Origin: Escherichia coli
Lineage (GTDB): Bacteria > Pseudomonadota > Gammaproteobacteria > Enterobacterales > Enterobacteriaceae
DNA length: 64,000 nt
Assembly (NCBI RefSeq): GCF_051903065.1
Contig: NZ_CP178438.1
Reading direction: 5' to 3' (one strand)
Made by a program: the position numbers
Part shown: positions 15,501-18,500 of the stretch, piece by piece
Layout: every line of letters starts with the position of its first letter
Numbering within the stretch: the first letter of the stretch is position 1

Positions 15501-18500
15501 CGATGTTCCACATCAGATTGCGTTCGTCGCGACGCAACTCACCTTTTTGCCCGTACTCCGGCATGCCGCTATTCAGGCGGAAGTTATTGTAGCCCTTGCG
15601 GTTTTCACTCATGTTTTCGTAGTTCAGGCCGGTAGTGAACGTGACCGGAACGCCCAGTTCACCACGGTGTGTCCAGCGGCTGTCTATTCCCTGGTAATGG
15701 CGTTGCAGGGTAATCACGCCGCCCGCATGTGACGGGTTAAGTTGTGGTGCCATGGGTATTGACTGGTACTGGGTCGTTTCTCGCTCTCCGGCATACATCA
15801 TCACACTCATATCATCCCGCGAACTCAGGCTACGTTCATAGCGCAACCCAGCCTGAGTTTGCTTGATGGTTTTTCGCGTGTCGTACTGTTCTGCACGAGG
15901 CGCTTGTTGTGGATTCGCCTTCCATTCTGCTTTGGTTAGCCCACCTGGGTCATCTGCTTTGATATCCACACTATTGAAAATCAGGCTTAATTTGCTGGCT
16001 TCATCAATGCGTACGCCCAGTTTGGCATTGGCTAAATTTTTCTGTGCGCCACTATGGTCACGATAGCCGTGGGTCGTAAAACGCGTGGTTGAGACGGTGT
16101 AATCAACATCGCCGGACTGTGTGCCGTCTCCCGTTGCGCCCGTTGCTTTCAGCCCATAGCGCCAGCTGCCAAAACTGCCGTAGTAACTACTGGCTTCAAT
16201 GGTTGGTGGCTGTTGTCCGGTCTGGGTGGTGACATTCATTACACCGCCAGACGCGTTGCCATACAGGGCAGAGAAGGGGCCACGCAGCACTTCCACATTT
16301 TGCACACTGCTTAAATCGATGTTGGATGTTTGCCCTTGCCCGTCGGGCATGGTGGCGGGAATACCGTCCACATACAGGCGAATACCGCGAATTCCGTAAG
16401 TGGAACGGGAGCCAAATCCGCGAATCGACAGCTGTAAATCTTGCGCATAGTTCTGCCGGTTTTGTACCTGTAAACCAGGCACGCCGGTCAGTGATTCGGA
16501 CAAGTTAATGCGCGGTGTTGCCAGGCGCATATCCTCGCCATCCACCACGCTTACTGCTGCAGGGGTATCCAGTTCTGAAACCACCTGCGGCGCGGCACTG
16601 ACAATCATGGTCTGTTCATCAGCGGCAAAAACAACGGGGGAAAGGACAAGCAGTGCGGGCAAAACGGTCTGTCGGACGGAAAAAATCTTCATGAAAAAAG
16701 CCAAGTTAAGAATGGGAAAACGCCGTCATGGTAATGAAATTGTAAATTTATGGAAAATGAAACGGCACAATACGTTAATTAATTGAGAAAATTGTAGTCG
16801 TAACGGCAAGAAATGCTCCACATTTGAGAAAATAATGATTACCATTCCCATTTATAACAAGAGCGTAACGATGATTACGCTTAGCGAAGCATTGTGAAGC
16901 AGCAAAAATATCGGTTCATCAAAGGGAGTCGTCATGCATTTACGTCATCTGTTTTCATTGCGCCTGCGTGGTTCATTACTGTTAGGTTCATTGCTTGTTG
17001 CTTCATCATTCAGTACGCAGGCCGCAGAAGAAATGCTGCGTAAAGCGGTAGGTAAAGGTGCCTACGAAATGGCTTATAGCCAGCAAGAAAACGCGCTGTG
17101 GCTCGCCACTTCGCAAAGCCGCAAACTGGATAAAGGTGGCGTGGTTTATCGTCTTGATCCGGTCACTCTGGAAGTGACGCAGGCGATCCATAACGATCTC
17201 AAGCCGTTTGGTGCCACCATCAATAACACGACTCAGACGTTGTGGTTTGGTAACACCGTAAACAGCGCGGTCACGGCGATAGATGCCAAAACGGGCGAAG
17301 TGAAAGGCCGTCTGGTGCTGGATGATCGTAAGCGCACGGAAGAGGTGCGCCCGCTGCAACCGCGTGAGCTGGTAGCTGATGATGCCACGAACACCGTTTA
17401 CATCAGTGGTATTGGTAAAGAGAGCGTGATTTGGGTCGTTGATGGCGAGAATATCAAACTGAAAACCGCCATCCAGAACACCGGTAAAATGAGTACCGGT
17501 CTGGCGCTGGATAGCAAAGGCAAACGTCTTTACACCACTAACGCTGACGGCGAATTGATTACCATCGACACCGCCGACAATAAAATCCTCAGCCGTAAAA
17601 AGCTGCTGGATGACGGCAAAGAGCACTTCTTTATCAACATTAGCCTTGATACCGCCAGGCAGCGTGCATTTATCACCGATTCTAAAGCCGCAGAAGTGTT
17701 AGTGGTCGATACCCGTAATGGCAATATTCTGGCGAAGGTTGCGGCACCGGAATCACTGGCTGTGCTGTTTAACCCCGCGCGTAATGAAGCCTACGTGACG
17801 CATCGTCAGGCAGGTAAAGTCAGTGTGATTGACGCGAAAAGCTATAAAGTGGTGAAAACGTTCGATACGCCGACTCATCCGAACAGCCTGGCGCTGTCTG
17901 CCGATGGCAAAACGCTGTATGTCAGTGTGAAACAAAAATCCACTAAACAGCAGGAAGCTACCCAGCCGGACGATGTGATTCGTATTGCGCTGTAATAGAT
18001 ATGGCGAGGGTGAAAACGGAGAGACTTGCCTGACTTTTATCAAGCCGCATGCGGCACCTTCGTCAGTAATCTAAATTTGCCCGGCACGTAGCCGGGCAAT
18101 TTTGCAATTAACTCGCCGTTTCAGGCTTAAACACAATTTCCTGTTTTTCTTCATCTTCCTCGACGACTGGCGCAGTGCTGTGAATTTCAGCAACGCGTTT
18201 GCGCACACCAAACCAGCCTATAACCAGCAGAATACCGATAATCGGCAGCGCCGCGATAGTATAAGTCCCGTTCGGGTAATCGAACGCCATCAGCACAAGG
18301 ACACTCAGTAAAAACAGTAATGTCAGCCAGGAAGTGAAGGGTGCGCCAGGCAGTTTAAAACTGACATCCGCTGCTTTGCCTTCTTTAATCGCTTTACGCA
18401 GGCGCATCTGGCACACGATGATAAACGCCCATGAAGCGATGATTCCCAGCGACGCGAAGTTCAACACAATCTCAAATACGCGCGACGGCACCAGATAGTT

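What the first reader, a model, noticed from the sequence alone, without database searches (positions are those of the whole stretch)
16705..16933. Fur-box-like sequence in the divergent yncD/yncE promoter
aataatgattaccattccc resembles the Fur consensus and lies between a TonB-dependent receptor gene and yncE. Iron control of this pair would make biological sense.
Basis: inference. Interest (0 to 1): 0.25.

Follow-up and report, generated by a model that had tools for sequence, protein, structure and literature searches.

The report
Known Fur operator of yncE promoter
This is the already documented DNA site where the iron sensor Fur sits on the promoter of the E. coli gene yncE and shuts it off when iron is plentiful; it is real and strongly conserved, but it does not reliably control the neighbouring PQQ-importer gene yncD/pqqU.

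Summary
AATAATGATTACCATTCCC lies at 16831-16849 in the 241-nt gap between yncD/pqqU (minus strand) and yncE (plus strand) of E. coli. It matches the 19-bp Fur consensus at 15/19. That is the best match in the 64-kb window, and only 0.2% of shuffles of the gap reach it.

It is the most conserved 19-nt stretch of the gap across 24 enterobacterial genera. Published Fur ChIP-exo peaks, seen only in iron-replete cells, map to 16841-16853. yncE rises 8- to 280-fold in fur mutants.

The yncE mRNA 5' ends used by two laboratories (16850 and 16854) put the box at about -21 to -3, over a -10 hexamer TACCAT. The ryhB promoter has the same layout. The likely mechanism is therefore classical promoter occlusion by Fe-Fur.

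Iron control of the gene pair is only half right. pqqU does not change in fur mutants of MG1655 or E. coli W, rises modestly in W3110 and 042, imports PQQ rather than iron, and can be lost while the box stays with yncE.

Fur control of yncE has been known since 2003. My additions are a covarying 7-bp hairpin in the yncE leader, a conserved block complementary to RyhB, and Fur-box-like sequences upstream of distant YncE homologues.

The parts
16831..16849 (.). Fur box, 19-mer AATAATGATTACCATTCCC; the operator extends to about 16830-16850 as two overlapping 7-1-7 motifs
   Evidence: 15/19 to the consensus and best in the window; shuffle p = 0.002; most conserved 19-nt window of the intergenic region; W3110 ChIP-exo peak maps to 16841-16853
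16840..16845 (+). Probable yncE -10 hexamer TACCAT (TACTAT in most genera), embedded at box positions 10-15
   Evidence: Same register as the TATTAT -10 inside the ryhB Fur box, whose +1 is annotated; conserved; inference
16817..16822 (+). Probable yncE -35 hexamer TCCACA, 17 bp upstream of the -10, within the conserved block CTCCACaTT
   Evidence: Nearly invariant in 24 genera and kept in Citrobacter lacking yncD; inference
16850..16854 (+). yncE transcription start region
   Evidence: The 'entire 5' UTR' is given as -80 to +24, which puts the start at 16854. The forward primer of the pXG10-yncE fusion starts at 16850. A RegulonDB MarA site at -41.5 fits 16803-16822 if the start is 16854.
16803..16822 (+). 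Probable position of the weak-confidence RegulonDB MarA site (ACGGCAAGAAATGCTCCACA, centre -41.5)
   Evidence: Position inferred and the sequence; Reg-Seq saw no MarA footprint
16862..16881 (+). Conserved 7-bp stem-loop in the yncE 5' leader (AGCGTAA / CGATGA / TTACGCT)
   Evidence: 95.3% of cells paired, 6/6 pairs with compensatory changes, 0/500 shuffles reach the observed value; RNAalifold finds it independently, 7/7 compensatory; 77 G.U cells on the plus strand against 10 A.C cells; no Rfam family
16886..16903 (+). Conserved leader block GAAGCATTGTGAAGCAGC, complementary to RyhB nt ~46-58
   Evidence: A contiguous helix of 11 bp or more in 33/73 distinct leaders, against 2.7% of shuffles. 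It lies within both RyhB-responsive reporter inserts.
16924..16928 (+). yncE Shine-Dalgarno sequence GGGAG
   Evidence: Read from the sequence; conserved
16934..17995 (+). yncE coding sequence (7-bladed beta-propeller, periplasmic)
14590..16692 (-). pqqU (yncD) coding sequence, TonB-dependent PQQ importer
   Evidence: function
16727..16781 (.). Conserved yncD-proximal block, presumably the pqqU promoter and regulatory region. It contains GTAAA-N5-GGAAA (16742-16756) and a marbox-like ACGGCACAATACGTTAATT (16762-16780).
   Evidence: Conserved in genera that have yncD and lost together with yncD in Citrobacter; marbox match with 1 mismatch

Best explanation
The sequence is the Fur operator of the yncE promoter. 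When iron is sufficient, Fe2+-Fur dimers occupy about 16830-16850. This stretch covers the spacer and the -10 hexamer (TACCAT, 16840-16845) and reaches to within a few bases of the transcription start (16850-16854). RNA polymerase is therefore excluded and yncE is silent. When iron is scarce, Fur leaves and the promoter fires. RyhB, which is itself repressed by Fur, then adds roughly threefold more expression by acting on the 80-nt leader. What is shown: the motif, its conservation, in vivo Fur occupancy at this spot in iron-replete cells only, Fur-dependent expression, and the RyhB response of the leader. What is inferred: the exact -35 and -10 hexamers, occlusion as the mode of repression, and the RyhB pairing site. 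The operator serves yncE. Any effect on pqqU is weak and depends on strain or condition.
For: Motif: 15/19, best in the window, shuffle p = 0.002, and two overlapping 7-1-7 motifs. The score equals or exceeds those of the ChIP-exo-bound sites fhuA, ybaN and yddA, and is one below ryhB.

Conservation: the 51-bp core is present in 5409 of 5426 complete E. coli genomes. The box sits about -100 from the ATG in nearly all of 78 enterobacterial loci. It is the most conserved 19-nt window of the intergenic region, at 0.94 against a mean of 0.69. Distant YncE homologues (39-54% identity) also carry Fur-box-like sequences upstream, combined p = 4e-6.

Occupancy: Gao et al. 2023 list an iron-replete-only ChIP-exo peak upstream of yncE in 8 of 9 strains. 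The W3110 peak at 1524928-1524940 maps to window 16841-16853. Beauchene et al. 2015 also report Fur bound upstream of yncE.

Expression: yncE log2FC in fur mutants is +3.1 (MG1655), +8.1 (W3110) and +5.3 (E. coli W). [quoted passage not shown]

Promoter: the 5' ends used by two laboratories are 16854 and 16850. For a start at 16852 the box spans -21 to -3, identical to the ryhB box relative to its annotated +1, and each -10 sits at box positions 10-15.

RyhB: it activates yncE post-transcriptionally through the region -80 to +24, contributing about 3-fold of a 16-fold induction.
Against: I found no in vitro Fur binding assay (EMSA or footprint) for this fragment in the literature I could read. 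The start sites come from reporter-construct designs, not from primary start-site data that I could inspect, and they differ by 4 nt. The proposed -35 (TCCACA) and -10 (TACCAT) each match only 4/6, below the threshold of the promoter-scan tool. The ChIP-exo peak centre lies 7 bp to the right of the centre of the 19-mer. The MG1655 sheet of the ChIP-exo table is offset by one row, so I assigned its peak by coordinate, not by label. Conservation alone cannot separate a Fur operator from a core promoter, because the two overlap.
Confidence: 0.9

Rival explanations
1. The site is a shared bidirectional operator. One Fur site represses both divergent genes, so PQQ uptake (pqqU) and yncE are controlled by iron together.
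For: pqqU rises in fur mutants of W3110 (log2FC +2.95, p = 2.7e-51) and EAEC 042 (+2.02), and in those strains the ChIP-exo peak is assigned to both transcription units. A review of RyhB MAPS data lists yncD/yncE among head-to-head genes that may have overlapping UTRs. A promoter-like site on the minus strand at 16898-16871 would transcribe through the box.
Against: pqqU does not change in fur mutants of MG1655 (+0.12) or E. coli W (-0.10), while yncE changes 8- to 40-fold in the same data. [quoted passage not shown] The box lies about 50-100 nt from the conserved yncD-proximal block. Nine Citrobacter loci lost yncD and that block but keep the box, hairpin and Shine-Dalgarno sequence in front of yncE. 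The minus-strand promoter-like hit is no more than chance gives (1 found, 0.9 expected).
Confidence: 0.2
2. The block is conserved only because it is the core promoter of yncE, and iron control is indirect (for example through RyhB alone). The resemblance to a Fur box would then be incidental AT-richness.
For: The box overlaps the inferred -10, so promoter constraint must contribute to its conservation. RyhB does raise yncE expression.
Against: ChIP-exo places Fur on this spot in iron-replete cells only, in 8 of 9 strains. RyhB explains only about 3-fold of a 16-fold induction. Invariant positions extend beyond the -10 to the whole TAATGATTA..ATTC.CA core. Distant homologues with unrelated promoters also have Fur-like boxes.
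Confidence: 0.04
3. The match is a chance similarity with no function.
For: The site has 4-5 mismatches to the consensus, and the intergenic region is AT-rich (36% GC).
Against: Shuffle p = 0.002, best match in 64 kb, extreme conservation, and in vivo occupancy and regulation.
Confidence: 0.01

Closest known systems
ryhB promoter Fur operator (E. coli)
   Same: A 19-bp Fur box spans -21 to -3, with the -10 hexamer embedded at box positions 10-15 (TATTAT in ryhB, TACCAT in yncE). The two boxes are identical at 13/19 positions and share the AATGATTA..ATT core.
   Different: The ryhB box matches the consensus better (16/19 against 15/19) and has a better -35. The ryhB product is an sRNA, which in turn acts on the yncE leader.
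Dual Fur (transcription) plus RyhB (post-transcriptional activation) control, as published for cirA and shiA
   Same: yncE is repressed by Fur, and its expression is raised by RyhB through the 5' leader. The result is a coherent response to low iron.
   Different: The pairing site and mechanism of activation for yncE are not established. CopraRNA predicts only about -5 kcal/mol. My proposed inhibitory leader/start-codon helix shows no covariation.
Bidirectional metal-regulator operators in divergent intergenic regions: fepA-fes and fepDGC-entS for Fur (my own knowledge), znuA-znuCB for Zur (described)
   Same: The genes are divergent, and the metalloregulator site lies between them. One of the two genes encodes a TonB-dependent receptor.
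   Different: Here only one arm (yncE) responds robustly. The receptor arm (pqqU) imports PQQ and is unresponsive in MG1655 and E. coli W.
yddA (yddAB-pqqL) Fur box
   Same: Its box GGGAATGGTTATCATTAGC is identical at 16/19 positions to the minus-strand reading of the yncE box. It is bound in ChIP-exo in iron-replete cells only. Like yncE, it is an iron-regulated locus of uncertain function.
   Different: It is a different locus and operon with no sequence relationship outside the box.

Membership tests
Fur-repressed promoter (Fur box operator) | Match to the 19-bp Fur consensus, or to two overlapping 7-1-7 motifs, beyond chance | tested here: met
   15/19; 11/14 and 10/14; shuffle p = 0.002; best match in 64 kb; within the range of bound control sites, 14-16/19
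Fur-repressed promoter (Fur box operator) | Fur occupies the site in vivo in iron-replete cells and leaves it under iron starvation | tested here: met
   Published ChIP-exo peaks (condition 'R' only) in 8/9 strains. I mapped the W3110 peak to window 16841-16853. The data are from the literature; only the mapping is mine.
Fur-repressed promoter (Fur box operator) | Expression of the downstream gene depends on Fur and iron | tested here: met
   Literature data read here: yncE log2FC +3.1 to +8.1 in fur mutants; protein overproduced in a fur mutant; 16-fold induction under iron limitation
Fur-repressed promoter (Fur box operator) | Operator overlaps the core promoter (-35 to +1) | tested here: met
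   The 5' ends used for reporter fusions are 16850 and 16854, which places the box at -19..-1 or -23..-5. The hexamer assignment is inferred.
Fur-repressed promoter (Fur box operator) | Direct binding of purified Fur in vitro (EMSA or footprint) | not testable with these tools
   No such assay for this fragment appeared in the papers I could read. Chen et al. 2007 do not mention yncE.
Shared bidirectional Fur operator controlling both divergent genes | Both divergent genes are derepressed in a fur mutant | tested here: not met
   pqqU changes by +0.12 in MG1655 and -0.10 in E. coli W. It is positive only in W3110 (+2.95) and 042 (+2.02). It is reported as not Fur-regulated.
Shared bidirectional Fur operator controlling both divergent genes | Operator is evolutionarily linked to both genes | tested here: not met
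   Nine Citrobacter loci lack yncD but keep the box with yncE. A 54%-identical homologue (L088) has the same core AATGATTACTATTCTCA with no yncD nearby.
RyhB-activated mRNA (direct base-pairing target) | Post-transcriptional RyhB response that maps to the leader | tested here: met
   Literature: fusions driven by a constitutive promoter and carrying -80..+24 or 16850-16996 respond to RyhB; major RIL-seq target
RyhB-activated mRNA (direct base-pairing target) | Defined complementary site, proven by compensatory mutations | tested here: inconclusive
   The conserved block 16886-16903 is complementary to RyhB nt 46-58, with 11 bp or more contiguous in 33/73 leaders against 2.7% of shuffles. In E. 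coli itself the pairing is interrupted (6+5 bp), and the published predicted energy is weak. No mutational test exists.

The most novel reading that the evidence does not exclude
The most novel reading concerns what surrounds the Fur box, not the box itself. First, the yncE leader carries an undescribed conserved cis-acting RNA module: a covarying 7-bp hairpin at 16862-16881 with a conserved loop, followed by a block complementary to RyhB. This module may set mRNA stability or the RyhB response. Second, Fur-box-like sequences and adjacency to TonB-dependent receptors that are not PqqU orthologues recur at YncE homologues of only 39-54% identity. This suggests that the YncE family is an old periplasmic member of the iron regulon that works with TonB-dependent uptake. 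Third, the operator may restrain pqqU under some conditions.
Probability: 0.35. Interest if true: 0.35.

Novelty: already known. Interest (0 to 1): 0.13.

Why it matters
The finding is correct but not new. Fur repression of yncE and a Fur box in its promoter were reported in 2003 (McHugh et al., as cited) and confirmed by ChIP-seq/ChIP-exo and by fur mutants in many strains.

It is useful for annotation. One 2026 supplement says RegulonDB does not list the Fur site, so exact coordinates, the promoter register and the conservation data have practical value.

There are two modest biological points. First, iron control stops at yncE and does not clearly extend to the adjacent PQQ importer. Second, YncE is a vaccine and diagnostic antigen of unknown function, and its link to Fur, RyhB and TonB-dependent receptors holds well beyond E. 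coli. That narrows hypotheses about its function.

Tried and rejected
- **Consensus search with at most 3 mismatches:** no hit, because the site has 4-5 mismatches. I replaced it with full match-count distributions.
- **Promoter TTGAGA (16824-29) / TATAAC (16853-58):** rejected. The spacer is 23 bp, neither hexamer is conserved, and the resulting start would cut into the covarying hairpin.
- **Start near 16813, implied if the marbox-like 16762-16780 were the RegulonDB MarA site at -41.5:** rejected. There is no -10, that region is the least conserved part and carries indels, and it is lost in Citrobacter lacking yncD. The -41.5 site fits 16803-16822 with a start at 16854.
- **Upstream ORF starting at the ATG in the hairpin loop:** rejected. 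The ATG is absent in several Escherichia, Salmonella, Citrobacter and Raoultella sequences.
- **Hairpin as a minus-strand terminator (flagged):** rejected. There are 77 G.U cells on the plus strand against 10 A.C cells, and no U-tract follows.
- **Leader/start-codon helix (16893-16901 with 16935-16944) as the basis of RyhB activation:** 80.6% of cells pair, but there are no compensatory changes and the value is not above shuffles. RNAalifold does not predict it. The leader as a whole is not unusually stable, z = +0.49.
- **Whole-length RNAduplex of the leader against RyhB:** gave unrealistic long duplexes and weak significance (p = 0.13 and 0.02).
- **Rfam:** no family.
- **The search for homologous proteins:** returned only near-identical E. 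coli proteins. The representative search was needed to reach distant homologues.
- **L089 (27% GC, likely a symbiont) and L090 (homologue inside an operon):** uninformative for Fur boxes.
- **Papers not held:** Seo 2014 and Baba-Dikwa 2008. Beauchene 2015 has no supplement held. Chen 2007 does not mention yncE. The cap on papers stopped me reading Munder 2025.
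Full report
**Identity of the locus.** The window is E. coli chromosome. Bases 16600-17000 match 5411 of 5426 complete E. coli genomes and are 100% identical to strain ECNB21-M121. 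There the flanking genes are annotated pqqU (TonB-dependent receptor PqqU, formerly yncD) and yncE (7-bladed beta-propeller protein). pqqU occupies 14590-16692 on the minus strand and yncE occupies 16934-17995 on the plus strand. The divergent intergenic region is 16693-16933, 241 nt at 36% GC. Window coordinate x equals NC_000913.3 coordinate minus 1,506,373.

**Check of the observation.**
- The quoted sequence is at 16831-16849.
- It matches the classical 19-bp Fur consensus at 14/19 on the plus strand and 15/19 on the minus strand.
- The 15/19 match is unique among the 127,964 strand-positions of the window; 12 other positions reach 14/19.
- In 5000 dinucleotide-preserving shuffles of the intergenic region, 0.2% reach 15/19 or more.
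- The site can be read as two overlapping 7-1-7 motifs offset by 6 bp: 16830-44 (11/14) and 16836-50 (10/14).
- The second motif fits the ChIP-exo-derived E. coli motif TGAnAATnATTcTCA. In most other genera its right half is a perfect ATTCTCA.
- Control sites scored the same way give fhuA 14, ybaN 15 and yddA 15 (W3110 ChIP-exo sites) and ryhB 16.

**Conservation.**
- The 51-bp core 16812-16862 is present in 5409 of 5426 complete E. coli genomes, at 99% identity or more in 4993.
- A scan of one genome per species found 80 loci encoding YncE at 71-99% identity, from Escherichia to Atlantibacter and Kluyvera.
- In nearly all of them the best Fur match in the 300 nt upstream is the same element, AATAATGATTAC[C/T]ATTC[C/T/G]C, about 93-107 nt before the ATG.
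- In an alignment of 24 genera the box is the most conserved 19-nt window of the intergenic region. Its mean majority identity is 0.94 against 0.69 for the region, higher than the ribosome-binding site. TAATGATT, ATTC and CA are invariant.
- Five informative distant homologues (39-54% identity, other genomic contexts) also have their best upstream match at 13-14/19. Individual shuffle p values run from 0.0025 to 0.078, and Fisher's combined p is 4e-6.
- The 54% homologue carries the same core, AATGATTACTATTCTCA.

- McHugh et al. 2003 are cited for iron and Fur repression of yncE and for a Fur box in its promoter.
- Beauchene et al. 2015 list yncE among genes with Fur bound upstream.
- Banerjee et al. 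[quoted passage not shown]
- Huja et al. 2014 detected the box with a weight matrix.
- Moriel et al. 2016 show that YncE protein is overproduced in a fur mutant.
- Gao et al. 2023 give ChIP-exo peaks upstream of yncE in 8 of 9 strains, all in iron-replete cells only.

I mapped the W3110 peak (NC_007779.1 1524928-1524940) onto the window. It is ACCATTCCCATTT at 16841-16853, overlapping the right half of the box.

In the MG1655 sheet the gene labels are shifted by one row from P37 onward. For example, the peak next to tonB is labelled acnA. By coordinate, P44 (1521238-1521250 in NC_000913.2) is the intergenic peak.

In the same study's table comparing wild type with fur mutants in iron-replete medium, yncE log2FC is +3.10 (MG1655), +8.14 (W3110) and +5.30 (E. 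coli W). I did not see the column labels. I infer the direction from the TPM values and from the known repression.

**Promoter anatomy and mechanism.**
- Wang et al. 2015 fused 'the entire 5' UTR', -80 to +24 from the start codon, to a constitutive promoter. That puts the 5' end at 16854.
- The pXG10-yncE fusion of the 2022 NAR Genomics and Bioinformatics study starts at 16850 (primer mapped).
- A RegulonDB MarA site quoted at -41.5 of yncEp fits ACGGCAAGAAATGCTCCACA at 16803-16822 if the start is 16854.
- The box therefore spans about -23..-5 or -19..-1.
- The hexamer TACCAT (16840-45; TACTAT in most genera) lies at box positions 10-15. The nearly invariant TCCACA (16817-22) lies 17 bp upstream.
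- The ryhB promoter, whose +1 is annotated, has the same design. Its box spans -21..-3 and its -10 (TATTAT) occupies box positions 10-15.

I conclude that Fe-Fur occludes the -10 and start region of the yncE promoter. This conclusion rests on position and analogy. I could not find an in vitro footprint.

**Does the box also control pqqU (yncD)?** Mostly not.
- In fur mutants pqqU changes by +0.12 (MG1655) and -0.10 (E. coli W), but by +2.95 (W3110) and +2.02 (EAEC 042).
- Grinter and Lithgow, and Hantke and Friz, state that it is not regulated by Fur or iron. The latter show that it imports PQQ.
- Nine Citrobacter loci lack yncD entirely, and E. albertii has an internally deleted copy. In these loci, similarity to the E. 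coli intergenic region starts near 16775-16790. It retains CTCCAC, the box, the hairpin and the ribosome-binding site, while the yncD-proximal conserved block (16727-16781) is gone.

This natural deletion splits the intergenic region into a yncE module and a yncD module and puts the Fur box in the yncE module. The W3110 and 042 responses remain unexplained. Possible causes are a distal pqqU promoter that reads through the box (a weak minus-strand promoter-like hit at 16898-16871; yncD/yncE listed as a head-to-head pair in MAPS), supercoiling from the strongly derepressed divergent promoter, or indirect effects.

**Second layer of iron control, in the leader.**
- A 7-bp stem-loop (16862-16868 paired with 16875-16881, loop CGATGA) is supported by covariation across 76 sequences. 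95.3% of cells are paired, all six tested pairs have compensatory changes, 0 of 500 shuffles reach the observed value, and all slid controls fall below 51%.
- RNAalifold predicts only this helix, with 7/7 pairs compensatory.
- G.U pairs occur on the plus strand 77 times against 10 A.C cells. The structure is therefore in the yncE mRNA and is not a minus-strand terminator.
- No Rfam family matches it.
- Downstream, the conserved block GAAGCATTGTGAAGCAGC (16886-16903) is complementary to RyhB nt ~46-58.
- A contiguous helix of 11 bp or more occurs in 33 of 73 distinct leaders, against 2.7% of shuffles. In E. coli itself the pairing is 6+5 bp around a mismatch.
- This agrees with published post-transcriptional activation of yncE by RyhB, which contributes about 3-fold of a 16-fold induction and makes yncE a major RIL-seq target. 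CopraRNA nevertheless scores the interaction weakly.
- A candidate inhibitory helix between this block and the start codon shows no covariation.

The activation mechanism is therefore open.

**Comparison with known systems and verdict.** The site behaves as a standard Fur operator over a -10 element and meets every membership criterion I could test. Only in vitro binding is untested. It fails the criteria for a shared bidirectional operator. Fur control of yncE is already known, so the finding is correct but ordinary. The leader hairpin, the candidate RyhB site, and the reach of Fur-box and TonB-receptor linkage to distant YncE homologues are small additions. They bear on the still unknown function of YncE.

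Noticed in passing
window 16862-16881: A conserved 7-bp stem-loop in the yncE 5' leader has strong covariation (all pairs compensatory, 95% paired, G.U bias for the plus strand), a conserved loop C[C/G]AUGA, and no Rfam family. Its function is unknown.
   Followed up: yes
window 16886-16903: A conserved leader block is complementary to RyhB nt ~46-58, with 11 bp or more contiguous in 33/73 leaders. It is the likely pairing site for the published RyhB activation of yncE. A candidate inhibitory helix with the start codon has no covariation support.
   Followed up: partly
window 16727-16781: The yncD-proximal conserved block contains GTAAA-N5-GGAAA (16742-16756), which resembles the CpxR consensus GTAAA-N5-GTAAA (consensus recalled from my own knowledge). 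A CpxR screen lists yncD and yncE as regulated. The block also contains a marbox-like ACGGCACAATACGTTAATT (16762-16780, 1 mismatch). It is lost together with yncD in Citrobacter.
   Followed up: partly
L008, L009, L012, L014, L016, L018, L019, L023, L077 (Citrobacter); L004 (E. albertii): Nine Citrobacter genomes lack yncD/pqqU next to yncE; in L009 the upstream gene is a same-strand 221-aa ORF. The E. albertii yncD has an internal deletion, aligning only at residues 25-56 and 523-700. The PQQ importer is therefore dispensable, while yncE and its Fur box are kept.
   Followed up: partly
L090:980-4104; L091:2052-5217; L092:240-3405: YncE homologues of 40-51% identity sit in same-strand gene clusters with TonB-dependent receptors that are not PqqU orthologues (27% identity or less, over the plug region only). 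In L090 the cluster also follows an esterase of family PF00756. The link between YncE and a TonB-dependent receptor recurs in different gene arrangements.
   Followed up: partly
window 23627-23641: TGATAATGATAATCA is the best 7-1-7 Fur-type match in the window (13/14). It spans the start codon of an M23 metallopeptidase gene downstream of PAAR and VgrG genes (a type VI secretion island). I did not see a Fur ChIP-exo peak for this strain-specific region. It may be chance in AT-rich DNA.
   Followed up: partly
window ~10875-10895 (between yncL and ortT/ydcX): ChIP-exo peaks upstream of ydcX/ortT, published for several strains in iron-replete cells only, map here by offset from W3110 coordinates. 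They coincide with a weaker Fur-like motif, CGCAATAATACTCATTCTG (12/19).
   Followed up: partly
window ~16547-16583 (inside pqqU, codons ~37-49): By coordinate, MG1655 ChIP-exo peak P43 (iron-replete, not found by Seo et al.) falls inside the pqqU coding region, where there is no Fur-like motif. This is unexplained.
   Followed up: no
L028 (Pseudescherichia vulneris), L035, L039: In these genomes the Fur box lies only 52-62 nt from the yncE ATG. The leader is about 40-50 nt shorter and lacks the hairpin and the block complementary to RyhB. These are natural variants for testing what the leader module does.
   Followed up: no
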